Assembly (NCBI GenBank): GCA_000004985.1
Contig: GG738856.1
Length of the DNA stretch: 64,000 nucleotides
Source: Naegleria gruberi
Lineage: Eukaryota
Reading direction: 5' to 3' (one strand)
In this document: positions 3,652 through 39,648 of the stretch, piece after piece
Layout: each line of letters begins with the position of its first letter
Position numbering within the stretch: position 1 is the stretch's first letter
Notes under the pieces: generated by a model
Told to the model about the DNA's origin: nothing
Seen by the model: only the letters and a program-made list of their open reading frames with translations
Database searches by the model: none
Position numbers and translations under genes: made by a program

Positions 3652-5888
3652 TTGAGCCATCAATGGTTTTATTACCCAATTCGAGTGCATTACTCAAAAA
3701 AAATGCTTGAAAACCATCATCGTAGTGGTGCTTTGCCAAAAAGCAAGACAAGTTTTCAAACTGATAATAATAATAATAATAATACTAATAGTAGTAGTAA
3801 TAGTGATGAAGGAGTAGTTGATAAAAAACCAACATCGGAACAAAAAGGTTTTACAGTTGTGAATAAACAAGGAAGAGGAATGGTTGGTTCTTTGAGTTTT
3901 TCCAACCTTGTTCGATTGGATAATTCGGAAGTGCCTAAAGGACCCTATGGAAACAGTCCTCATTCAAAGAGAAAATTGGAAAGAGAATCAAATTGTCAAT
4001 CAACACCACAAGAAACAGGAAATAATACATTAATTAGTATTACAAGAATTTTGGCAATTTATACAGGAGGAACAATTGGTATGAAAAAGAGTAGTGAGGG
4101 TTATCAACCAGTTAAGGGATATTTGAGAAAGAAACTTGCTCAATTATCTCAATTTAACGATGAAAGACATAGAAAATTATATTTGACATTGGCAGGTGTT
4201 ATTAATGAGGAAGATAATGAAACAACTGAACAAGCAAAGATTGATCAATGGTTTTCAACTCCAAGAAGTGATGATGGTTGTGTAGCTCTTTATCAATTAT
4301 TAGAATTTGACCCAATTTTGGATAGTAGTGATATGGGTTATAAGGATTGGGTTAAAATTGCACAATGCGTTTATGATCATTACAATAATTATGACAGTGT
4401 AAGTGTTTGAGATATTGCTGAATATTAAGCTTGATTATCAAATTTAGTTTATTATTTTGCATGGTACTGATACTATGTGTTATACTGCGAGTGCTTTGAG
4501 TTTCATGTTTAGAAATTTGGCTAAACCAGTTATTCTTACTGGTTCACAAATTCCAATTTCTCAAACAAGAAATGATGGTATGTTAATCATGTGGAATTTT
4601 ACAATTTCTTACATTTGGAAATGAAGGTTTTGATAATTTATTGGGTTCTATTACTGTTGCCTCAAGAGTTTACATTCCAGAAGTTTGTGTATTTTTCCAT
4701 AACAAGTTATTTAGAGGAAATAGATGTACTAAAATGGATGCAGGTGATTTGAGTGCATTTGATTCTCCAAATGTTCCACCATTAGTTAAATTGGGTATTG
4801 ATATGGAAGTTAATTGGTCTTTAATTAGACCACCTCCTGCTCAGAATCAAGAATTCAAAATGGTCCCAATTACAAACAGTAATGGTAAGTAGACAGATTA
4901 TTGAAGGTTATATGATTGACCAAAATAATAGTCGGTATTTTAAGGATTTTCCCAGGTATTAGCCCAACATTGATGTCCAACTTTTTCTTGCCTCCAGTAA
5001 GTAGTTCAATTCAAAATTGTTATTTTTCATACCTGATGATAAATAGATGGAAGGAGTAGTAATGCTATCTTATGGTGTTGGTAATGTGCCTTCATCTAGA
5101 TCTGACTTTTTACAAGCTATTAAGGAAGCAACGAATAGAGGAATTGTAGTTGTAAATTGTACTCAATGTTGTAAGTTTCTATTGAAAGTCAAATTTCTTA
5201 TATTGTACAAAAATAGTTAAGGGAGCTGTATCTGCATCTTATAAAACAGGATCAGTACTTTATGAAATTGGAGTTGCGAGTGGATCAGAGTAAGTATTTT
5301 AGGAATATCAAACTTTAATATTTCAAAGTATGACACCTGAGGCATCAGTCACAAAATTGAGTAAGTTTTAACAAATGAACATATTACTAAGTAATTATTA
5401 TAGTGTATTTATTGAGTTGCGATTATGAAATTGAGGAAGTAAAGAGATTGCTCACTGTTGATCTGAGAGGAGAGCTTAATAAGCCAATGGCTGTTTCTCG
5501 TTACTCCCTGAGAGAAAGAGGATTTGTTACAGCAGTTTGTAAAGCTCTGAATTTCCAAGGAGGAGAATCTGATATCAAAGAAGTCAGTGATGCTCTCTTA
5601 CCTGTAATAATGTGTAATATTGGAAGTATTGGAGCAGTTGAAGAAATGACAAGACTAATTGAAAATGAAGGAGTTGATCCAAATATTCAAGACTATGATA
5701 AACGTACAGCACTCCACTTGGCTTGTTGTGAAGGACAGCTCGAGATGGTTAAGTTGTTAATTAATTACGGAGCTGATGTTAATACAAGAGATAGATGGGG
5801 ACATACACCTTATGGAGAAGCAATTAACTCTAAGCAGTATCTTGTTGTAAAATATCTGGAAAATCTGGGAATTGAATTACAAATTTAA
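3652..5888 (+). CDS. L-asparaginase / 60-kDa lysophospholipase (ASPG)-like with C-terminal ankyrin repeats, 8 exons join(3652..4398,4448..4577,4627..4884,4932..4996,5047..5170,5217..5289,5329..5360,5404..5888)
   Basis: Exon 1 carries the asparaginase N-terminal signature [12 protein letters not shown]. Exon 2 carries [10 protein letters not shown]...[11 protein letters not shown]. The last exon (ORF 5403..5888) has ankyrin repeats ([26 protein letters not shown]). All junctions are phase-consistent with GTAAGT/GTATGT donors and AG acceptors. Introns are 45-50 nt. Confidence 0.8.
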
Positions 5889-5892
5889 TAAA

Positions 5893-8063
5893 TTAATCAG
5901 TTTCTATTTCATTAATAGTTCTAAACTTGGATTGCATTGTCTTGAAGTGTTGTAATAATTCTTCTTCAAGACTCTTGTCTTCTTTTGAATTTTCTTCTTC
6001 AAGACTCTTTTGACCTGTCATTTGTATCATACAAAGGCTATTTACACACTCTAAACGTTTGCTCAATTTGGTGAAGGCTGTTGTTTGAGGTAAAAGCATC
6101 ATCAACCCATATAATGTTTTGAGGAGATAAGGGTGTTTGTGAGGCTCTAACAACTGAAGTCTCAAATCAACAAAGATTGGAGATTCCAATAATTGAACAA
6201 GATTATCGATTTGTGTTAAAAACTCCACCGTCACTTCGATTTCAGTACTTTTAAAGTAGTAAGAAAAGTGAATTATTTGTTGACAACTTACAAGCTAGAA
6301 ACTAAATAGCTTGCCAATTTGTACTGATTGGCAAGAAGGCATAAAGTAAGAGTGGCAATTGAATTGTGACACCAACTCTTAAATAAATCATGGAAAAGCT
6401 TTTGACCTTCAACAGAGCTATGGGACTTTTTAATGGAGGTTCTCAATCCTAACAATTCCTTACTGGTAAGTAAAATCATATTAAGAGTTTGGACCAGTGA
6501 TGATGTAAATTCCATATTACTTTGTTTGGTATCTAATAAGATATTTGAGAGTTCTTTGAAAATTTTCTCTGGATTGAGCATAACACTCAATTTTCTGAAA
6601 ATAAAACCAGCTTTGGTCAATAAATTATTATCATTTTGGAACATTTGAAGGAGGGACCTTAAGAACTTTTGGAAATTTTCTTCAGTGGTTGAAATAATTG
6701 CCAAAACTTGTAAATCTAGGGAAACAACATCTTCGTTAGGGTCAGATAGAGATTTCAAAAGTAATCCAAAAATAATGTCGATATGCTTCATTACACGGTC
6801 CAAATTCTTATTCAGAAGGATGTGGCACCATTTCAAAGCACAAATTCTATTAGGGATGGAAGGCTTTTGCAATTCAGTCTTGATGACTTTCATCACATCA
6901 CTGAATGAAATAGTTTGATCTGGTGTTGATTTATCCTCTATTATTCTCATAACTTCACTATTAGCTTGTGTACTGGCGTTTCTCAAATCCATTTCATTAT
7001 TGGAAATGTGTGGTAAAATAGCACCAATGACCTGTGAGTGATAAGGTAATACCTTTCTCTTGTCGAAAAGCAAAAATTTGTAAATCCAAATAATAGCTGT
7101 TTGTTTTGCAAGACTACTTCCTGGAGCATCATCACAATGAGCGATGAGAATTTTGATGAGAGGACCAAAATCAATAGAATCGTAGGAATATTCAATTTCT
7201 GTTAAAAATTCATCAAGAACTGTTTTGGCTTGATTGACTATTTCTCTATTAGGATCACTTAACATGAAAAATACGCCAGAAAGGAAATGAGGAAGATACT
7301 CAATCAGATCAATATCTGGTACAGAATCCAAGACAATAATCCAACTCAATAAAAATTGTCTAACATATGGATCGTTGGTGTTAATTCTCTTACTAAGCTC
7401 TGGAATAAATTGATCGATATTGAATATTTCATCTTCTGTCACAATATCTTTAATCAATCTATCCAAGACAACATTAGCATTTTGAACTGTTGTGTCAGGA
7501 TCTCCACTTAGTTTACACAATCCATCAAATATTACATGAAATTGTGGTATGATTTTTCCTCTTGCAATTTTAGCTACATTATACACAGCTTCGGAAGCAT
7601 GAAATCTTACTTTAGCATCTTGATCACCAAAACAACGAAGAATAGGAGGAACCAAATCTTCCAAATACTTTCCAATATCTCTATACAAAGCAATTGCACA
7701 AGATCCTAAAGCCCATAATCCTCCTTTCTTCATATTTGGCTGAATAGAGTCAATCAAGTGGATTGTCAAATATCTAATCAATTTTTTAACAAGTATTTCT
7801 CCTTTTTTTAATTTATCATCATCATCACTTGATGGTACAACAGATGTTGTTGTTGTTGATAATGTATCCGAATCAGTCAATAATAATTTCAAGACAAGCC
7901 TTTCAATTTCCTCTCCACCAATTTTTCTCTTTTCCTTTAATTTATCCGTTAAATTTCTAATCAAAGCTTGTGTGATCAGTGGAATAATTTCACTAAATTC
8001 ATTCTCTACACCCGTATTGTTTGATGGTTGATAGAGGGAGGCACTTGATGCCGAGTGTTGCAT
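5893..8063 (-). CDS. VAC14: VAC14 (PIKfyve/Fab1 scaffold) homologue, 2 exons complement(join(5893..6247,6292..8063))
   Basis: HEAT-repeat 591-aa ORF with DQDAKVRFHASEAVYNVAKIARG...VLDRLIKDIVTE, matching the Vac14 Fab1-binding region. A downstream 113-aa ORF carries the Vac14 C-terminal LLKTLYGLMMLLPQTTAFTKLSKRLECV. The two are joined by a 44-nt GTAAGT...AG intron, phase 2. Confidence 0.8.
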
Positions 8064-9607: not shown

Positions 9608-11668
9608 CTATTCGTCTGCATTTATTAATGAGGGTGTTTGCATGATTTTAGAAAGATGTTCTGCAATATGAAATAGTGACGTTTGTTCTTTTTGAATGCT
9701 AGTCCACTCGTTTTCAATATATGCTGTTTTAGCAGACTCTGTAAAGAATGCCTTAGATGTGCAATTGGTTATAGTAATTAAGAAAAATAAAAGTTCTGCT
9801 TCGCTCCAATTCAATTCCAATATTTCAGTGAGATTTTTCAAAATTCTCACATTTACAATTTGGTTATTCAATATTAACACATCTCTTTCTTCCTTGATAC
9901 CTAACAAGCTAGCAAGCTTCTTATTCGATGTCCTAATTGTTAATCTAAGGTTCTCTGCACCAATATATTTAAGTGATGTGAATCCCATAAAATTAAAAAC
10001 GAGCTCGAGACTAGACTTGTTTGTTGCACCTAGGAGCTTATTAGAAACTGTTGGAACAACATTCATTCTAACTATACTATAATTTGTACTTTCAACACTA
10101 GAGCCCAGTAATTTGAATCTAACTTCTCTACCGAATACATTTGAAACATTTCTAATAATTCTTTCATATTCTTGACTGTTTCTTTGGTAATTAACAAGCC
10201 TTCTTGGAATCTCTAGTAGCTGTATATCACAGAGTAGTTGATTTGTCATGTTAATAAGTAAGTCTAATAAATAAATTTTTGTGGATTTGATATTTGTTAA
10301 TTCAAATACATATTGTTTGAGGAAAGTGGATGATACAAAGTCAATACTTCGGAATTCTTCTGTTGTTTCTCTAGTTGTTACTTGGCATTTTTGTATTGCT
10401 GATGGGAATGTTTGTAAATTATTTCTCTTATAGTTATAGTATTGTTCAATTACATTTTGACAAGTGTCCAAAGTTCCACACATTGCCAAAAATTGGAACA
10501 TTTCTGTTACGGACATCGATGTAGTATTAGTAATGACACCACTTAGTTGACAAAGCTTGTAAAGAATGATATCATTGAATTCGTACTTGCTTCCTGCCAT
10601 ATTTACAATAATTTGTCTTTCATTATTAGCCAAGTCTCCTGAGAGTCCTAAAAATGTTCCATATTTTGTAGAGTTTGTTCCTATAGACATTTGATATAAT
10701 GTCACTCGTTTCTTTTGTTGTTGATTTTGTAAAGTTGTGGCCATAAGGTTTTGGTGAATAAACACTTTTTGGTCAAGTTGTTGCAAATCAGGTATTAATT
10801 GAATTACAGAGGAAAATCCATAATTTTCTTCTCCTTTGATTTGTTCAAATTCAATAATTTGAAGTTTTCCTAGTAAAAATGTACACATTTCTTGATAATA
10901 TACATTTTGAAGTGAAATGGTATCGATTAATTGTCTAACCATTTTGTGTTTTTTAGTAAATTCTACTCTAGATGATAAAGGTATGCACATAAATATTCCA
11001 ACTGGTGGTATATCTGGTTTATCTTTTGGCTCCTCAATCGATGGTATAGTTGCTTTATGAAAAAGTTCGTTCAATAGTAATTGTATTCTACAACTTCGTG
11101 AAATAACTTGAACAGACCTCAAAAAGTTGTGTTGCTTTTTTTTCAAAATGTCAGCTGTGATTGTTTCGGTATTTGAACTTAACATTAAAACGCAAACTTG
11201 ATGATACCATTGAATAAATTGATTCATACTGAAAATATATGGCGAATGTTTTTTAGCCAGCTGATTGAAATGTTGTGAAACACAACTGAAGATAATAGCC
11301 GATGAATATGGAAGAAACACAAGAATTCTTTGATAAAGTTCCTCTCCCGAATCATGTGCTTGTGCGAACATCTTCACCAAAGGAATAATATGGTCAGAAG
11401 AACTTCCGTTATGACTCTTATTCTTTGGTGTTTTCCTAATAATATTTACTCCAGATATTGCCACATTAGAATCCACATTATTAAATGTTCCATTACTATT
11501 TGTATTATTATTTAAAAGTTGAAAGGCTTGATTAGATGAAGCATGAGCCATCATTGAATTAACAACTTGATCATCATCTTTTAATTGAATTAATTGAAAA
11601 AACAGCATTCCATAAATAATTAAATTCTCGGATATTTCTAGAGAGTGTTGTTTCAAAGATGACTCCAC
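9608..11668 (-). CDS. hypothetical protein (686 aa, no recognisable domain)
   Basis: Long uninterrupted minus-strand ORF with codon usage like neighbouring genes. Divergently arranged with the lysyl-tRNA synthetase gene. Confidence 0.4.
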   Translation of the reverse strand: MESSLKQHSLEISENLIIYGMLFFQLIQLKDDDQVVNSMMAHASSNQAFQLLNNNTNSNGTFNNVDSNVAISGVNIIRKTPKNKSHNGSSSDHIIPLVKMFAQAHDSGEELYQRILVFLPYSSAIIFSCVSQHFNQLAKKHSPYIFSMNQFIQWYHQVCVLMLSSNTETITADILKKKQHNFLRSVQVISRSCRIQLLLNELFHKATIPSIEEPKDKPDIPPVGIFMCIPLSSRVEFTKKHKMVRQLIDTISLQNVYYQEMCTFLLGKLQIIEFEQIKGEENYGFSSVIQLIPDLQQLDQKVFIHQNLMATTLQNQQQKKRVTLYQMSIGTNSTKYGTFLGLSGDLANNERQIIVNMAGSKYEFNDIILYKLCQLSGVITNTTSMSVTEMFQFLAMCGTLDTCQNVIEQYYNYKRNNLQTFPSAIQKCQVTTRETTEEFRSIDFVSSTFLKQYVFELTNIKSTKIYLLDLLINMTNQLLCDIQLLEIPRRLVNYQRNSQEYERIIRNVSNVFGREVRFKLLGSSVESTNYSIVRMNVVPTVSNKLLGATNKSSLELVFNFMGFTSLKYIGAENLRLTIRTSNKKLASLLGIKEERDVLILNNQIVNVRILKNLTEILELNWSEAELLFFLITITNCTSKAFFTESAKTAYIENEWTSIQKEQTSLFHIAEHLSKIMQTPSLINADE

Positions 11669-34195: not shown

Positions 34196-35348
34196 TTACA
34201 AGTTGAGTAAATCAGCTTCTTCCTTAATTCTTCTAGAGAAATCAGCAATGGTAAGAGAAATACCTTCATGCAAGGCAACCTTTGGTGACCAACCAAGTAA
34301 AGTCTTTGCCTTGGTAATGTCTGGTCTTCTGACTTTTGGATCATCTTGTGGAAGTTCGTGGAAAACTAATTGATTTGACTCGGTTGCTCCAATCATTTCT
34401 CTAATCTTTTCAGCCATTTCCAAAACAGTATATTCTTCTGGATTACCAATATTGACAGGTCCAATAGTAACATCTTGATTCATCAAAGTGTGCAATCCTT
34501 CAATTTGATCACTAACATAACAGAATGATCTGGTTTGTTTACCAGTTCCGTAGACAGTGATGTTAATTCCCTTAAGAGCTTGATAAACAAAATTACTAAT
34601 AATACGTCCGTCAGTCAAATTCATTCTAGGTCCATAAGTGTTGAAAATTCTAGCAACACGGACTTGAGTATTCTTGGTTCTATTAAAATCAAAGCAGAGA
34701 GTTTCAGCAGCTCTCTTTCCTTCATCATAACAAGATCTAGTACCAGTACAGTTGACATTTCCCCAATAAGTTTCAACTTGTGGATTAATAGCTGGATCAC
34801 CATAAACTTCACTAGTAGAAGTGATCAACAATCTAGCATTCCACTTTGTAGCAAGAGTGAGGAAATTATATGTTCCTTGAACACAAGTCATTGTTGTATG
34901 AATTGGATCTTTTTGATAATGTGGTGGTGAAGCAGCACAAGCCATGTGATAGATTTGTCCAATACCTTCCAATGATGTAATTCTTTCATCGGAGAGAGCA
35001 TTAATCACATCAGCTTGAATGAAATGTACATTAGGATTTTCAGACAAGTGTTTCAAATTAACCAAACTTCCTGTTTGCAAATTATCAATAACATAGATTT
35101 CATCCTTGTTATCACTCTTTTTCAAAAGGTAATCAACCATATGACTTCCTATTGTATTGGAGGTATAATTTTAATATTATTATTATTGTTGATGATGATG
35201 ATAATTATATATGATGTTCATAAACCATCCACATCCATTATTATTGCAATAAGTAAAATAATATGATGGTAATTCATATTAGTAAACTAATATTGACAAA
35301 ATAATACAAACCAAGGAAGCCAGCACCACCAGTCACTACAATCTTCAT
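34196..35348 (-). CDS. UXS1: UDP-glucuronate decarboxylase (UDP-xylose synthase), 2 exons complement(join(34196..35148,35312..35348))
   Basis: Exon 1 MKIVVTGGAGFL(G) Rossmann motif. Exon 2 SHMVDYLLKK...YDEGKRAAETL...DGRIISNFVYQALKGINITVYGTGKQTRSFCYVSD. 163-nt intron with GTTTGT donor. Confidence 0.85.
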
Positions 35349-35500
35349 TTTTGTTTGTTTTTTTTAATCGTTGTTGCCAATGAGAAACAACTATTTGATT
35401 GGTGAATGGTCAGCTTATTGGATAATTTGTGATATTACATTTTACAAAAGTTAAAGTACACCATGCCAATTATGAAGAGTGGATGTTGAGTTTTGGATTT

Positions 35501-36574
35501 TTAATTGAGAGAAACTTGATAAACATCAAAGTGATGATTTAGCTTTGAATTCTCATGGACGCAGTATTCTTGATTTACCTTATTGATTAGTCCACCAAAA
35601 TTATTTCCACATTCATGTACAAAGTATATTCTTCTAATTCTAGAGTGTAAGAGAGCCATTGCACACATACAGCAAGGTTCATGTGAAATAAATAAATCCA
35701 ATCCTTTGCAGAGGTAGGGAATTTCTGTACTCGGTGTGTTAGGTGGTAGCTTCTCAATTGTCTCTATACAGTATTGGGCAATGACATCCACACCAACAAC
35801 AGCACAGTGCCTCAGTGAGCATTTGAATTTTCCCAAATTTGAAAGAGTACCTTCTGTTTCTGAATAGTAAGGAGAGAAAAATGAATTTTTAGATTCGTCT
35901 AGGAATAATTCATCATGAATACTAGATTTAACAATTGTCTTGGTTTGTGGATTGAAAAATAACCCAGAAACTCGCTTACTCTTTTCAAATGAATCAATTA
36001 CTAGTTTTGTACATGTTTCTACAGATTTCTCATCGTGACTATTTACATTTAGTTCTGCTTTTGGATCTAATTTTGCCAATTGAAGTTCAGTTTCATATAA
36101 ATTAACAGTTTTAAGAGGCCAATATTGAGTATTCCATTCCTTCCACTGATATTTCAATTTAGGTCCATATTTTGGAATTTTAAAAAGTTTCAAAATTTTT
36201 TCTGCTTGTTGATGATCCGAACATTCTAAAATTGTTTTAAAAACATGATTTTCTTTTGTAAGTAATTCATCATCCGAGCTTTGAAAAACATTAGAAATCC
36301 ACCTCTGTAAATTTGTATTTTCATCAGTATCATCATCAATATTCAACAATGGATACAAAACACAATAAGTATCACTTCCAATAGTTTTAATTCTTTTAAT
36401 AAAATCTATATCACGAGCCTCCAATGGAAAATTCTTATTCAAATATTGAATCAAGCCTGAAGTTTTTGATTTATTTTCCACTCTTATCCCGATAATATTA
36501 ATCAACTCCAAATCGGTAATCTTCGGCTTGGTGTAGATGTTTTTAATTGATAACTGTGATGATGAATTTTCCAT
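35501..36574 (-). CDS. CMP/dCMP-deaminase zinc-binding domain protein, tRNA adenosine deaminase subunit TAD3/ADAT3-like
   Basis: C-terminal HCAVV...PCCMC (H-x-V...PC-x-x-C, Glu-less variant typical of ADAT3) with a long N-terminal domain. True ATG is at 36574 (MENSSSQ). The ORF-track start at 36610 uses an alternative TTG. Confidence 0.5.
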   Translation of the reverse strand: MENSSSQLSIKNIYTKPKITDLELINIIGIRVENKSKTSGLIQYLNKNFPLEARDIDFIKRIKTIGSDTYCVLYPLLNIDDDTDENTNLQRWISNVFQSSDDELLTKENHVFKTILECSDHQQAEKILKLFKIPKYGPKLKYQWKEWNTQYWPLKTVNLYETELQLAKLDPKAELNVNSHDEKSVETCTKLVIDSFEKSKRVSGLFFNPQTKTIVKSSIHDELFLDESKNSFFSPYYSETEGTLSNLGKFKCSLRHCAVVGVDVIAQYCIETIEKLPPNTPSTEIPYLCKGLDLFISHEPCCMCAMALLHSRIRRIYFVHECGNNFGGLINKVNQEYCVHENSKLNHHFDVYQVSLN

Positions 36575-36582
36575 ATTTTTTT

Positions 36583-36599
36583 TTTTTTTTAAATGCAAT
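36583..36599. repeat. target-site duplication, left copy (TTTTTTTTAAATGCAAT)
   Basis: Identical 17-mer recurs at 38013..38029, immediately flanking the LINE fragment. Confidence 0.6.
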
Positions 36600-38012
36600 G
36601 GGCAAGACAATTAGTAGTTTTATCCATCTAGCAAGAGGAAATTCAATTTCCAATCCTCGCCTACAAACAATTGACTCAACAATAAGGGGTAACCTAAAAA
36701 GATCAATGAAGATCGATGCAAAGGTAAAACCATCCACAATGTATGCACAATTCGAAAGAAAAGGACTAGAAATTCCAAACCTCGAATACATAGCCAACTC
36801 AATCCTTTGCAATAACTTAATCAACAAATTCCACTCAAGTAACCCACTTGTCAGAGAAGCAGTACAGTACGGAATTAATAACTGTAACACGAACAAAACA
36901 AAACTACACAACATATTTGAAAAATTCCACTACATCCTAAAACAACACAAACTTACCACAACAATATGTAACACCAATCATCAACTTCTGGAAAAGGAAA
37001 AAGATGAACAATACTCCTACTCAGAATTCACAATATGGACTGATGGATCCAAATCAGAAAACAAAGTAGGATTCAGTGTAATCATTCAGAACAACGAATT
37101 TACAAAAGGATACAAATACAAGCTCCACTCATACCACTCAAACAACATGGCTGAATTATCAGCAATTACAACAGCACTACACATCATACCACCAAACAGC
37201 AATGCAAAGGTACTCACTGACAGTGAAATAGCAGTCAAAATAATTTACAACACAAATTACAAAGGTCAATTTAAGCAAATCAAAGATGAAATTACCAACC
37301 TCATCAGCACTAAAAAACTTCAAGCATCCATCGAATGGACAAAAGCTCATACAGGAATAACAGATGGAAATAACTACGCTGATAAGAAAGCCAAACAAGC
37401 CTCAAGAATAGGACATCGAATTGCACCCCAACATCTACTAACTCAAGGGCAACTAATTATCACCAATTCGAAAAAAGTTTGGAAAAGTAGAATCAAAGGA
37501 GTACTTAGTGAAAAGCTCTACAATCAAGGAACATCCGAACTCATCAACAGAACAAATCTCAATTACCTCAAAGAACATACCACCCCAACTCACAAATACT
37601 CAATCTGGAGGCTCATGATAAATGGACACTTAAGAAGCCTCATAGTAGACAACCCACAATGCCCAACATGTAACAAAAACCTTGACACAGAACACCTCTT
37701 CATAGAATGCCCAGAAATGAATTCAGCTAGAAACTGGATGATTGAAGAAATCAAAAAAAATACCAATCTCGAACCAGTACTAAGCACAGAGAGGACAGAA
37801 ATATTAACACCAAACTCATTCCAACTGAATATCTTTGGTATTCTGACAGAACCTATTCAAGGTATTATCAAAGAACAATGGCCCAAGATACAAGGAGGCC
37901 TCTCACTTTTTGGAGGAAGAGTACAAAAACAATACAACAAAATCTTAAAAATTCAATAAGACGTTCCAAATGGACGAACCCGTCGGGTTCATTCGATTAA
38001 TAAACGTTTAAA
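36600..38012 (+). mobile_element. 5'-truncated non-LTR (LINE-like) retrotransposon copy: ORF2 C-terminal part (RNase H + Cys-His motif) plus 3' UTR
   Basis: Uninterrupted 453-codon ORF ending at 37959 with RNase H motifs TIWTDGS, AELSAI, HTGITDGNNYADKKAK and C-terminal CPTCNKNLDTEHLFIECPE. 3' UTR contains hairpin GAACCCG-T-CGGGTTC and AATAAA. Flanked by identical 17-bp direct repeats. Confidence 0.65.
37976..37990 (+). other. perfect 7-bp stem hairpin in LINE 3' UTR (GAACCCG T CGGGTTC)
   Basis: Direct reading of the sequence. Lies 17 nt after the ORF stop and before AATAAA. Confidence 0.6.
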
Positions 38013-38029
38013 TTTTTTTTAAATGCAAT
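38013..38029. repeat. target-site duplication, right copy (TTTTTTTTAAATGCAAT)
   Basis: See left copy at 36583..36599. Confidence 0.6.
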
Positions 38030-38350
38030 TTCAAAATTTATTTTTTAATCTTTTTGTAAAATATACAACAACAAACTGTAGTGAAAATTGTAAAGATTGC
38101 GACCTGTAATTTGAAAATATGTTCAATCTTGATACAATGTCGGAATTATTGCGCTCAGGAAGGGTAATTTCATTGTTTGACTTTAGATGTGTTCATTGTT
38201 GAAAAAGAGAAATAATTCCACAAACACAACATTTCAGTTCTTGCAAGGAACCATGCATAAGGTTGAGGGAACATATTTGGCACTAACCTGAAACTTCAAT
38301 TCTATTGTTTTTAATGACATTTTGTCCCAGTTGATCTATTTGAAAGACAG

Positions 38351-39016
38351 ATGCAACAATGTTTCTTTCACTCACTTATTCAAAAAATGTCTCAATATAA
38401 CCAATCTTTTACCACTCAACCTGGTTATCCTCAACCAGTTAATGTTCAACCATTGTCTTATAACCCTGCCATTCAACAATTTTCTCAACCACAATATGGT
38501 CAACCAATGAGCCCATCTCTGCAACCAAGTCCATCAACTCCAAATTCTTCTTTCACAAAGCAATCTGGAGGTTCTTTCCACATGCAACAAGATCCAGCTC
38601 TAATTCAATCAAACACACCAAGTCAACCAGTTCTCGAGTGTAAGAATTTGTTACCTTTTATTGTTAATGATAAGCTTGTAAAGAATACTTTTTGGGCAAC
38701 TGGTGGTAATATCCTAATCAAGATATTCATATTTGTTGTCAATAAGTTTATTCTCATGGGTTTAGGTGAAGCTCTGATGGTCAATTACATTACCAGAAGA
38801 GAAGTTAAAAACATGAGAATTGGTAACAGAATGTTGAGCTACAAATCAAGAGGAAACTTCAAGATGGCCCTCCTATGTGTTGTTAATTGGATATTGAACA
38901 TATTCTCATGTGGTTTATTCTACATTCTTGGTTATAGTCATATCATGTACCTTTCTCAACTCGATGCCAGAATTCACTGGGGAAAACCAGCTAAAATTTC
39001 CAAGAAGAGTCAATGA
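38351..39016 (+). CDS. hypothetical Pro/Gln/Tyr-rich N-terminus + hydrophobic segments (membrane protein), possibly 5' half of one gene with the next ORF
   Basis: ORF with PGYPQP..QPQYGQP region then TM-like segments and a ...NIFSCGLFYILGY motif. Stop overlaps the next ORF start (ATGA). Confidence 0.35.
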   Translation: MQQCFFHSLIQKMSQYNQSFTTQPGYPQPVNVQPLSYNPAIQQFSQPQYGQPMSPSLQPSPSTPNSSFTKQSGGSFHMQQDPALIQSNTPSQPVLECKNLLPFIVNDKLVKNTFWATGGNILIKIFIFVVNKFILMGLGEALMVNYITRREVKNMRIGNRMLSYKSRGNFKMALLCVVNWILNIFSCGLFYILGYSHIMYLSQLDARIHWGKPAKISKKSQ

Positions 39017-39648
39017 AAGAGGCAATTTGTTGGGAACCAATTGGTAATGGAATGGGTGAATTCAAGATATTTAGTGTATACTTGGGTGTTGGATTTGAAA
39101 TAATGTTCATCATTTTGTATTCACTCAATTTGGTTTCGTTTGGTTTACTTTCTCCACTATTGTACAAGATTTACTTCCCAGCCTACTTTGAGAAGGTTCA
39201 ATTGGGAAAGGGAAGATTTGCAGTCATTCATCCAAAGATGATTTCCTCAATTAATAAGCATGCCAAGAAGAGATCCAAATTGAAGAAGGAAAAAATTGAA
39301 CAACCAACAGAAGTTTATCCATGTGATTATCCAGTTTTAGGTTTTCCACCTCAACCTTCTCATGAAACATACAAACTTAAATTGAAATTTGTTCCAACTT
39401 TTTGTGAGTTGATCAAATTCTTTGTAACGATCAATGTTCTCAGCTTTGTGTCATGTGGATTATTTGTCAAGTGTTGCTTGGCAAATTATGCCAGAAATTA
39501 CATGAATAGAAATATTCATATTGAATTGGAATCAGTTCCATTAGAAGAGCTGCTCAATAATAATAATATCACAGTTTCAAATAATGAGATTGCATTGCAA
39601 CAAGTGACTGTAGTTGAAACTGTTATCATTCAACCTAATCAACAATAA
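39013..39648 (+). CDS. hypothetical membrane protein (second ORF of the pair; repeats the SCGLF-containing motif)
   Basis: Begins in the +1 frame at the ATGA overlap. Contains ...SFVSCGLFVKCCLANY similar to the upstream ORF. Confidence 0.35.
   Translation: MKEAICWEPIGNGMGEFKIFSVYLGVGFEIMFIILYSLNLVSFGLLSPLLYKIYFPAYFEKVQLGKGRFAVIHPKMISSINKHAKKRSKLKKEKIEQPTEVYPCDYPVLGFPPQPSHETYKLKLKFVPTFCELIKFFVTINVLSFVSCGLFVKCCLANYARNYMNRNIHIELESVPLEELLNNNNITVSNNEIALQQVTVVETVIIQPNQQ

What the first reader, a model, noticed from the sequence alone, without database searches (positions are those of the whole stretch)
36583..38029. Recent 5'-truncated LINE-type insertion with 17-bp target-site duplication inside the 5' leader of the ADAT3-like deaminase gene
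Identical 17-mers TTTTTTTTAAATGCAAT flank a 1.41-kb block. The block carries an intact ORF with RNase H motifs (DGS..., AELSAI, HTGITDGNNYAD) and a C-terminal CxxC...H...C motif typical of non-LTR ORF2 ends. An AATAAA-containing 3' UTR follows. The left TSD ends only 17 bp upstream of the deaminase ATG at 36574 (opposite strand). The element therefore now forms the entire proximal promoter of that gene. The intact ORF and perfect TSD argue for a young insertion. The element ends in ...CGTTTAAA rather than a poly(A) tract.
Basis: seen in the sequence. Interest (0 to 1): 0.6.

Follow-up and report, generated by a model that had tools for sequence, protein, structure and literature searches.

The report
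Polymorphic truncated LINE insertion in Naegleria

Summary
The window is Naegleria gruberi NEG-M. A 1,413-bp block (36600-38012) is flanked by a perfect 17-bp duplication, TTTTTTTTAAATGCAAT.

- **Content:** it carries the last about 35% of a LINE ORF2. That is the RT tail, an RNase H domain with intact D-E-D-H-D residues (Pfam 3.7e-17) and a CX2CX7HX4C motif, followed by a 53-nt 3' UTR with AATAAA.
- **Empty site:** a contig assembled from run ERR1078381 (98.6% and 96.4% identical on the two flanks) carries the 17-mer exactly once with nothing inserted. N. fowleri and N. lovaniensis also lack the block at the orthologous locus.
- **Relatives:** full-length relatives (N. fowleri, Willaertia, metagenomes) encode ORF1 plus APE-RT-RNase H-CCHC.
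- **Verdict:** this is a young, polymorphic, dead-on-arrival LINE insertion made by target-primed reverse transcription, a new member of a known kind.

All four copies with genomic context lie head-to-head against a host start codon. Each has T7-8 directly after its 3' end, which starts the duplication in the three with a verified one. A(≥7)TG marks start codons in Naegleria in 25 of 28 cases, so the family may target start codons. Promoter function of the element is untested.

The parts
36583..36599 (.). Left copy of the 17-bp target-site duplication, TTTTTTTTAAATGCAAT
   Evidence: Exact match to 38013-38029. The same 17-mer is present once at the empty site in L003.
36576..36582 (.). Seven extra T that extend the left T-run to T15. 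They are absent from the empty allele and from the right copy. Unexplained; possibly slippage.
   Evidence: Alignment of window to L003 shows a 7-nt T indel at 36576. Sequence read.
36600..38012 (+). 5'-truncated non-LTR (LINE) retrotransposon copy, 1,413 bp, sense strand on +
   Evidence: Absent from L003: the two alignments break at 36583 and 38012. A-rich strand skew. 69% nucleotide identity over its whole length to another truncated copy, L001.
36601..37959 (+). Open remnant of ORF2 (452 codons plus stop): RT C-terminal tail/linker, RNase H, CCHC. An ATG formed at the junction (36598-36600: AT from the target, G from the element) is in frame.
   Evidence: 59% identical to P0001, 37% to N. 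lovaniensis P0002 and 35% to N. fowleri ORF2 residues 727-1188.
37024..37404 (+). RNase H domain with D148, E185, D207, H250 and D261 intact
   Evidence: Pfam PF00075 E=3.7e-17, aa 142-268. These five residues are invariant in alignment A1.
37660..37710 (+). C-terminal CX2CX7HX4C zinc-knuckle-like motif (CPTCNKNLDTEHLFIEC)
   Evidence: C354, C357, H365 and C370 are invariant in A1. C, H and C are invariant across 7 divergent ORF2s in A4. Weak Pfam zf-RVT, E=0.018.
37960..38012 (+). 3' UTR. It contains a hairpin GAACCC-GUC-GGGUUC (37976-37990) and AATAAA (37999-38004), and ends CGTTTAAA with no poly(A) tract.
   Evidence: Fold -15.5 kcal/mol, z=-2.0. Near-identical 3' UTR in L001 despite 59% protein identity. 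An analogous hairpin is seen in 5 of 6 copies.
38013..38029 (.). Right copy of the 17-bp target-site duplication
35501..36574 (-). ADAT3/Tad3-like deaminase gene (357 aa). Its start codon lies 25 bp from the insertion point. The coding sequence is not disrupted.
   Evidence: Pfam dCMP_cyt_deam_1 2.9e-5. Orthologues in N. fowleri and N. lovaniensis and JGI-named ADAT3 homologues. N-termini align.
38030..38350 (.). Remainder of the original 347-bp divergent intergenic region. It is now separated from the deaminase gene by the insertion and remains attached to the + strand gene starting at 38351.
   Evidence: Collinearity with L003.

Best explanation
The block at 36600-38012 is a dead-on-arrival, 5'-truncated copy of an APE-type, RNase H-bearing LINE that is native to Naegleria and its relatives. 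It inserted recently by target-primed reverse transcription into N. gruberi NEG-M.

**Proposed steps**
1. The element's endonuclease nicked the coding strand of the deaminase gene at the end of its A8 leader: 5'-...TTTAAAAAAAA^TATGG-3', one base before the ATG.
2. The 3' OH primed reverse transcription from the 3' end of the LINE RNA (...AAUAAACGUUUAAA).
3. Reverse transcription aborted after about 1.4 kb.
4. The other strand was cut 17 bp away, and fill-in produced the 17-bp duplication.

**Consequences**
- The copy keeps only the RT tail, RNase H and CCHC, so it cannot move by itself.
- It leaves the deaminase gene with 25 bp of native upstream DNA (18 bp before the T-run grew). It pushes the former 330-bp shared intergenic region 1.43 kb away.

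**Shown:** the duplication, the empty allele, the truncation, the family relationship, and the same target geometry at other copies.

**Inferred:** the order of the nicks, priming without base-pairing, and any effect on deaminase transcription.
For: - **Repeat and ORF.** Perfect 17-bp repeat, unique in the window. ORF with RNase_H at 3.7e-17 and a CCHC motif. A-rich sense strand.
- **Empty-site allele.** L003 from run ERR1078381 matches window 34460-36583 at 98.6% and 38012-39555 at 96.4%. The 17-mer is present once and nothing lies between.
- **Orthologous loci.** The block is absent at the orthologous loci L004, L005 and L006.
- **Host identity.** The window is N. gruberi NEG-M by three exact protein matches.
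- **Relatives.** They have APE+RVT_1+RNase_H(+zf-RVT) architecture and an upstream ORF1. They occur as multi-copy clusters in N. fowleri, with 14 and 30 members. The window copy aligns to ORF2 residues 727-1188 of 1,320.
- **Independent copies with their own duplications.** N. lovaniensis L002 has 16 bp, TTTTTTTCTGTTGGTT. N. fowleri L009 has 12 bp, TTTTTTTCATGC, at 2550-2561 and 6342-6353.
- **Shared 3' end.** All copies have AATAAA 0-11 nt from the end.
Against: - No second copy of the same subfamily could be found. There is none in the window. The best protein matches anywhere are 75% over 170 aa and 59% over the full length. The rest of the NEG-M genome could not be searched.
- The element has no poly(A) or simple-repeat tail.
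- The primer left by the nick (A8-3') has no complementarity to the RNA end.
- Seven extra T lie outside the left duplication, which the simple model does not predict.
Confidence: 0.93

Rival explanations
1. The empty allele in L003 is secondary. Under this view the insertion is old, and L003 lost it by recombination between the two 17-bp repeats, which would restore an exact empty site.
For: Recombination between direct repeats would give exactly the sequence seen in L003. The two haplotypes differ by 1.4% SNPs, so they are not very close.
Against: - The ORF is completely open over 452 codons and the repeats are 17/17 identical.
- N. fowleri, N. lovaniensis and the metagenomic relative L004 all lack the block.
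- Precise excision through 17 bp of homology is rare.
Confidence: 0.04
2. The block is a host RNase H-domain gene, or a domesticated one, rather than a transposon remnant.
For: The ORF is intact, and a junction-formed ATG (36598-36600) is in frame. NCBI and UniRef call relatives 'ribonuclease H'.
Against: - It shows presence/absence polymorphism with a target-site duplication.
- The N-terminal 140 aa are the tail of a reverse transcriptase that continues upstream in relatives.
- Relatives are multi-copy and carry APE and RT.
- The block is not syntenic in other species.
Confidence: 0.01
3. Endonuclease-independent capture: LINE cDNA was patched into a chance double-strand break rather than inserted by the element's own nick.
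For: The copy is heavily 5'-truncated, has no poly(A) tail, and shows an irregular T-run at the left side.
Against: Endonuclease-independent insertions typically lack duplications and often delete target DNA. Here there is a clean 17-bp duplication. The same A(n)^T(G) nick position recurs at three other independent copies in two other species.
Confidence: 0.02

Closest known systems
I-group non-LTR retrotransposons (clades I, Ingi, Tad1, Loa, R1, Nimb, Loner, Outcast), including ingi/L1Tc of trypanosomes, which like Naegleria belong to Discoba
   Same: - The ORF2 order in full-length relatives is APE endonuclease, RT, RNase H, then a C-terminal Cys/His motif.
- The RNase H has the canonical D-E-D-H-D residues. 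PMC4640811 lists the I group as the main RNase H-bearing LINE clades.
- The element has two ORFs, variable-length target-site duplications and frequent 5' truncation.
   Different: - Clade placement by RT phylogeny was not done.
- ORF1 of relatives has no recognisable Pfam domain.
- There is no poly(A) or (TAA)n tail.
- The target motif A(7-8)^T(G), abutting start codons, is not one I know for these clades (own knowledge).
L1 clade (mammalian and plant LINE-1)
   Same: - APE-type target-primed reverse transcription, with duplications of about 12-17 bp and 5'-truncated dead copies.
- A homopolymer-based target preference.
- A Pfam zf-RVT-like C-terminal motif.
   Different: - L1 nicks 5'-TTTT^AA-3' and primes on poly(A), so L1 duplications begin with A-rich sequence after a poly(A) tail (established knowledge). 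Here the nicked strand ends in an A-run, the duplication begins with T8, and there is no poly(A).
[quoted passage not shown] This one has H.
- The RT of a full-length relative scores better against R2 (6.6e-18) than against human L1 ORF2p (2.9e-9).
Position-specific LINEs of compact protist genomes (Dictyostelium TRE5/TRE3 near tRNA genes; trypanosomatid SLACS/CZAR in spliced-leader genes)
   Same: These are LINEs in gene-dense genomes that land at a recurrent, gene-defined position rather than at random. Four of four Naegleria copies with context abut a start codon.
   Different: - Here the apparent specificity can be explained by a simple DNA motif, A(≥7)T(G), that happens to be the host's start-codon context. 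Recognition of a transcription complex or a repeated gene is not needed.
- The sample is only four copies.
Stringent-type LINE 3' ends (for example eel UnaL2, silkworm SART1)
   Same: A short stem-loop lies just upstream of the 3' end. The stem sequence differs between subfamilies while pairing is kept. PMC3747384 describes such stem-loops as typical of LINEs that recognise their own 3' UTR.
   Different: The hairpins were picked by eye from each sequence, so the covariation count is circular. One of six copies (L009) has no convincing hairpin. There is no functional test.

Membership tests
Non-LTR (LINE) retrotransposon, APE type | Insertion flanked by a target-site duplication, with a matching empty site | tested here: met
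   17-bp perfect duplication. Empty allele with the 17-mer once in L003.
Non-LTR (LINE) retrotransposon, APE type | ORF2 encoding an apurinic-like endonuclease and a reverse transcriptase | tested here: met
   Both are missing from this truncated copy but present in full-length relatives. P0021, P0036, P0053, P0054, P0168 and P0169 have Exo_endo_phos/Exo_endo_phos_2 plus RVT_1. The window ORF aligns to their C-terminal third.
Non-LTR (LINE) retrotransposon, APE type | Complete 3' end with variable 5' truncation among copies | tested here: met
   The window copy, L001 and L002 start at different points within or after the RT, and L009 upstream of ORF2. All share the ...AATAAA(N0-11) 3' end.
Non-LTR (LINE) retrotransposon, APE type | 3' poly(A) or simple-repeat tail | tested here: not met
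   The element ends ...AATAAACGTTTAAA and is followed directly by the duplication. The other copies end in 1-3 A. Not all LINE clades have such tails, so this does not exclude membership.
Non-LTR (LINE) retrotransposon, APE type | No long terminal or inverted repeats | tested here: met
   No terminal direct repeats were found around the full-length copy L008 or around L009, apart from the short duplication. Inverted repeats were not searched.
I group of LINEs (I, Ingi, Tad1, Loa, R1, Nimb and others) | RNase H domain downstream of RT with D-E-D-H-D residues | tested here: met
   Pfam RNase_H 3.7e-17. D148, E185, D207, H250 and D261 are invariant. The domain order RT then RNH is seen in relatives.
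I group of LINEs (I, Ingi, Tad1, Loa, R1, Nimb and others) | RT domain groups with I-group references in a phylogeny | not tested
   No reference clade sequences (Repbase/RTclass1) were available. Named database hits were uninformative.
I group of LINEs (I, Ingi, Tad1, Loa, R1, Nimb and others) | ORF1 with gag-like zinc knuckles | tested here: inconclusive
   L007 ORF1 (517 aa) has no significant Pfam hit.
L1 clade | Poly(A) tail and a TTTT^AA target (duplication beginning with A) | tested here: not met
   There is no poly(A). The duplication begins with T8, so the nicked strand reads A8^T.
ADAT3/Tad3 (neighbouring gene) | Cytidine-deaminase fold with PCxxC but no catalytic Glu in the H(A)E motif | tested here: met
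   HCAV and HEPCCMC motifs. Pfam dCMP_cyt_deam_1 at 24.3 bits, just under the 25-bit cut-off. Homologues named ADAT3.

The most novel reading that the evidence does not exclude
The Naegleria/Willaertia LINE lineage may be a start-codon-targeting retrotransposon.

**Proposed mechanism.** Its endonuclease would nick the coding strand of host genes at the boundary between the A7-8 leader and the ATG, as A(n)^TG or A(n)^TATG. Copies would therefore land head-to-head a few bases from start codons. The 12-17-bp duplication would rebuild the A-tract/ATG context, so the gene keeps its translation start.

**Evidence so far.**
- All four copies with genomic context show this geometry: the window, N. lovaniensis L002, and N. 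fowleri L008 and L009.
- A(≥7)TG is a start codon in 13 of 15 cases in the window and in 12 of 13 cases in the fetched N. fowleri and N. lovaniensis loci.

**What would follow.** The family would be a natural probe of how little upstream DNA a Naegleria gene needs.
Probability: 0.45. Interest if true: 0.6.

Novelty: new member of a known kind. Interest (0 to 1): 0.35.

Why it matters
As a single insertion it matters little. It is a textbook dead LINE copy, and LINE fragments are already counted in Naegleria genomes (190 in N. lovaniensis, PMC6125883). Three things give it some value.

1. **Recent mobility.** The filled/empty pair is direct evidence that LINEs have moved recently within N. gruberi. 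I found no paper in the held library describing Naegleria LINE structure, ends or targets.
2. **A natural experiment on promoters.** The insertion strips an ADAT3-like gene (Tad3 is essential in yeast, own knowledge) of all but 18-25 bp of its upstream DNA. That tests Naegleria promoter and leader requirements, provided NEG-M is not simply heterozygous.
3. **A possible unusual target specificity.** The recurrent A-tract/ATG target, if it holds genome-wide, would be unusual for a LINE. It would also explain how a LINE persists in a gene-dense genome.

Tried and rejected
**Searches that gave nothing useful**
- Other copies in the window: blastn and tblastn found none.
- Exact-sequence look-ups of the LINE ORF and of the deaminase: not on record. 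No NCBI N. gruberi protein appeared among the deaminase homologues either. Both therefore seem unannotated or modelled differently in NEG-M.
- Clade naming through database names: two cluster look-ups and a profile search returned almost only unnamed metagenomic proteins or 'hypothetical protein'.
- Metagenome scan for more copies: only three weak RNase H matches.
- Literature on Naegleria LINEs: four searches found only repeat-content tables. The N. gruberi genome paper is not held. The run ERR1078381 is not mentioned in any held paper.
- tRNA genes as a possible target: none in the window.

**Ideas considered and dropped**
- An LTR-element or DIRS fragment. Rejected because relatives carry an APE domain and an ORF1-ORF2 layout, and no terminal direct repeats were found.
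- L1-type priming. Rejected because the polarity of the homopolymer is reversed.
- A universal 3' hairpin. Weakened because L009 lacks one.
- The deaminase coding sequence being truncated by the insertion. Rejected because the N-termini of the orthologues align at the same Met.

Full report
**1. What is in the sequence**

The 17-mer TTTTTTTTAAATGCAAT occurs exactly twice in the 64-kb window, at 36583-36599 and 38013-38029, even when two mismatches are allowed. It is the only exact 17-mer pair 100-3000 bp apart that is not a trinucleotide microsatellite or a GAT/GAC coding repeat. Markov simulations give 0.43 such pairs on average.

The 1,413 bp between the repeats (36600-38012) have a strongly A-rich + strand, with AT skew 0.35-0.41 against about 0 outside. 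They carry one uninterrupted reading frame, 36601-37956 with stop at 37957-37959. Pfam finds RNase_H at E=3.7e-17 (aa 142-268). It also finds a sub-threshold zf-RVT match over a CX2CX7HX4C motif. After the stop come 53 nt with AATAAA (37999-38004), and the block ends ...CGTTTAAA.

The deaminase gene on the minus strand starts at 36574.

**2. Whose genome**

Three long ORFs of the window are exact matches to annotated proteins of Naegleria gruberi strain NEG-M: XP_002679697.1, XP_002679838.1 and XP_002679708.1, on a 602-kb contig.

**3. It is an insertion: the empty site exists**

The deaminase protein has a 100%-identical counterpart on a 3.6-kb contig assembled from sequencing run ERR1078381 (L003). 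L003 aligns to window 34460-36583 at 98.6% and to 38012-39555 at 96.4%, with nothing in between. At the junction it reads CCATA-TTTTTTTT-AAATGCAAT-TTCAAAA, which is the 17-mer once.

The two haplotypes differ by 51 SNPs and 6 indels over 3.7 kb. L003 is thus a different strain or a divergent haplotype of the same species.

In N. lovaniensis, N. fowleri and a metagenomic relative, the deaminase gene lies head-to-head with ORC2 and there is no such block. Alignment of the orthologues shows that the ATG at 36574 is the conserved start, so the coding sequence is untouched. The protein has HCAV in place of the catalytic HAE, has PCxxC, and has homologues named ADAT3.

**4. What inserted**

The word-indexed search found two relatives:
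- P0001, 59% identical, on a 2-kb metagenome contig (L001).
- P0002, 37% identical, from N. lovaniensis (L002).

An exhaustive HMMER search with their alignment found 3,393 hits, 17 of them below 1e-30. The long hits (1,152-1,236 aa) have Exo_endo_phos (APE), RVT_1, RNase_H and sometimes zf-RVT, in that order.

They come from several sources:
- N. fowleri, in two 90%-identity clusters with 14 and 30 members.
- N. gruberi NEG-M.
- Willaertia magna.
- Unnamed assemblies.

A near full-length contig (L007) and an N. fowleri locus (L008) also have an upstream ORF1 of about 520-530 aa with no recognisable domain.

The window ORF aligns to residues 727-1188 of a 1,320-aa N. fowleri ORF2, whose Pfam RT domain ends at residue 683. 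P0001 continues 83 aa further upstream into the RT tail. The window copy is therefore a 5'-truncated LINE that keeps about 35% of ORF2. It keeps none of the endonuclease or the RT core, so it is dead on arrival. The five RNase H catalytic residues (D-E-D-H-D) and the CCHC residues are invariant in the alignment.

**5. Family features**

*Independent duplications.*
- The N. lovaniensis copy has a 16-bp duplication, TTTTTTTCTGTTGGTT.
- An N. fowleri copy (L009) has a 12-bp duplication, TTTTTTTCATGC, at 2550-2561 and 6342-6353.

*The 3' end.* All six copies end 0-11 nt after an AATAAA and finish in one to three A. None has a poly(A) tract.

*A possible 3' hairpin.* Five of the six copies have a 5-6-bp hairpin with a 3-4-nt loop a few bases upstream of AATAAA. 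Its stem sequence differs between subfamilies while pairing is kept. I chose these hairpins by eye, which makes the covariation count circular, and L009 has no convincing one. This is a lead, not a result. Such stem-loops are typical of LINEs that recognise their own 3' UTR (PMC3747384).

**6.

In all four copies with genomic context, the left flank is the start codon of a minus-strand host gene, followed directly by the T-run that begins the duplication.

| Copy | Left flank and duplication | Host gene |
|---|---|---|
| Window | CCATA\|T8... | deaminase |
| L002 | GCA\|T7... | SNF2 helicase |
| L008 | CA\|T8-9 | Nas2 |
| L009 | ACA\|T7... | 1,923-aa protein |

L007 also ends AATAAA followed by T8 at the contig end. 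L001 is the one exception.

On the nicked strand, which is the gene's coding strand, this reads A(7-8)^TG or A8^TATG.

How common is this motif at start codons?
- In the window, 55 A-runs of ≥7 exist on both strands and 14 abut an ATG that opens an ORF of ≥100 aa.
- Of the 15 A(≥7)TG sites in the window, 13 are such starts.
- In the fetched N. fowleri and N. lovaniensis loci the figure is 12 of 13.

An endonuclease preferring A(n)^T(G) would therefore hit start codons almost automatically. Four of four is unlikely if any A-run were equally good (about 0.004). It is unremarkable if the motif includes the TG. The sample is small, and I rate the start-codon-targeting reading at about 0.45.

**7. 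Mechanism**

*Shown:* the duplication, the empty site, the truncation and the target geometry.

*Inferred:*
1. The first nick falls on the gene's coding strand at A8^TATG.
2. Reverse transcription is primed from that 3' OH on the RNA end ...AAUAAACGUUUAAA.
3. Synthesis stops early.
4. A second nick falls 17 bp away, followed by fill-in.

*Two loose ends.*
- The primer (A8) cannot pair with the RNA end. Either priming needs no complementarity, or source transcripts read through into their own flanking T-run.
- The left T-run is T15, while the empty allele and the right copy have T8. Slippage during gap filling, later expansion, or a pre-existing longer allele are all possible.

**8. Consequence for the deaminase gene**

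Before insertion, the deaminase and the gene starting at 38351 shared a 347-bp divergent intergenic region. Now only 25 bp of native DNA remain upstream of the deaminase ATG, followed by the antisense LINE. Whether the LINE supplies a promoter is untested. So is whether the gene is read from 1.4 kb away, or whether NEG-M keeps an empty allele.

**9. Comparison with known families**

- **Plant L1:** this RNase H has H, not the R of the plant-L1 archaeal type, so plant L1 is unlikely.
- **Dualen/RandI:** there is no room or match for a second endonuclease after the CCHC, which argues against it.
- **L1 generally:** the RT of a full-length relative matches R2 better than human L1 in PDB sequence searches, and the homopolymer polarity at the target is opposite to L1.
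- **I group:** this is the best guess, but no RT phylogeny with clade references was possible, so membership at clade level is untested.

**10. Verdict**

This is a polymorphic, 5'-truncated LINE insertion in N. gruberi NEG-M. It is a new member of a known kind and of modest interest in itself. The family's apparent aim at start-codon A-tracts is the part worth following up.

Noticed in passing
window 36572-36599; L002 9547-9566; L008 1003-1013; L009 2548-2561: All four copies of this LINE lineage with genomic context abut the start codon of an opposite-strand host gene. The T7-8 run that abuts the ATG is repeated directly after the element's 3' end, and in three of them it begins a verified duplication. 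The implied nick is A(n)^TG or A(n)^TATG on the gene's coding strand.
   Followed up: partly
window, e.g. 3696, 12134, 13953, 19527, 32651, 39730 (+); 2601, 8069, 44450, 45393, 61135 (-): N. gruberi genes very often start with A7-9 directly fused to the ATG. Of 15 A(≥7)TG sites in the window, 13 open ORFs of ≥100 aa. In fetched N. fowleri and N. lovaniensis loci the figure is 12 of 13. The motif is almost diagnostic of start codons.
   Followed up: partly
window 38351-39648 (indels near 39009-39013): The + strand gene upstream of the insertion is split into two overlapping ORFs in the window (38351-39016 and 39013-39648). In L003 it is one continuous ORF of ≥392 aa, because L003 has 7 extra bases (AAA and CACT) there. 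This is a frameshift allele, an assembly error or an unrecognised intron in NEG-M. The gene has no Pfam match. The N. fowleri, N. lovaniensis and L004 loci have only a short gap between the deaminase and ORC2, so the gene seems absent there, though no direct search was made.
   Followed up: partly
window 38112-38137: The window carries 26 bp (TGAAAATATGTTCAATCTTGATACAA) in the intergenic region that are absent from L003. This is a second structural difference between the two haplotypes, close to the insertion.
   Followed up: no
window 36576-36590: The T-run next to the deaminase ATG is T15 in the window but T8 in the empty allele and in the right duplication copy. The 7 extra T lie outside the duplication.
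   Followed up: partly
window 36598-36600: The insertion junction creates an ATG (AT from the target, G from the element) in frame with the 452-codon LINE remnant. This gives a potential 453-aa RNase H/CCHC protein (MGKTISS...). No evidence of expression.
   Followed up: no
window 35501-36574 and 36598-37959: Neither the ADAT3-like protein nor the LINE ORF is in the protein collection as an exact sequence. No NCBI N. gruberi protein appears among the deaminase homologues. The ADAT3-like gene seems unannotated or mis-modelled in the NEG-M annotation.
   Followed up: partly
L009 6342-6459 (N. fowleri VFQX01000035.1): The annotated N. fowleri protein XP_044561950.1 (P0016) runs past the LINE's 3' end and right duplication into flanking DNA. 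Its last about 50 residues are therefore not element-encoded, which is a gene-model artefact.
   Followed up: no
window 37976-37990; L001 1943-1957; L002 ~11259-11271; L007 ~5237-5252; L008 ~6585-6599: A 5-6-bp hairpin with a 3-4-nt loop lies a few bases upstream of the AATAAA in five of six copies. The stem sequences differ but remain paired. It is absent in L009. It may be a 3' recognition element for the reverse transcriptase.
   Followed up: partly
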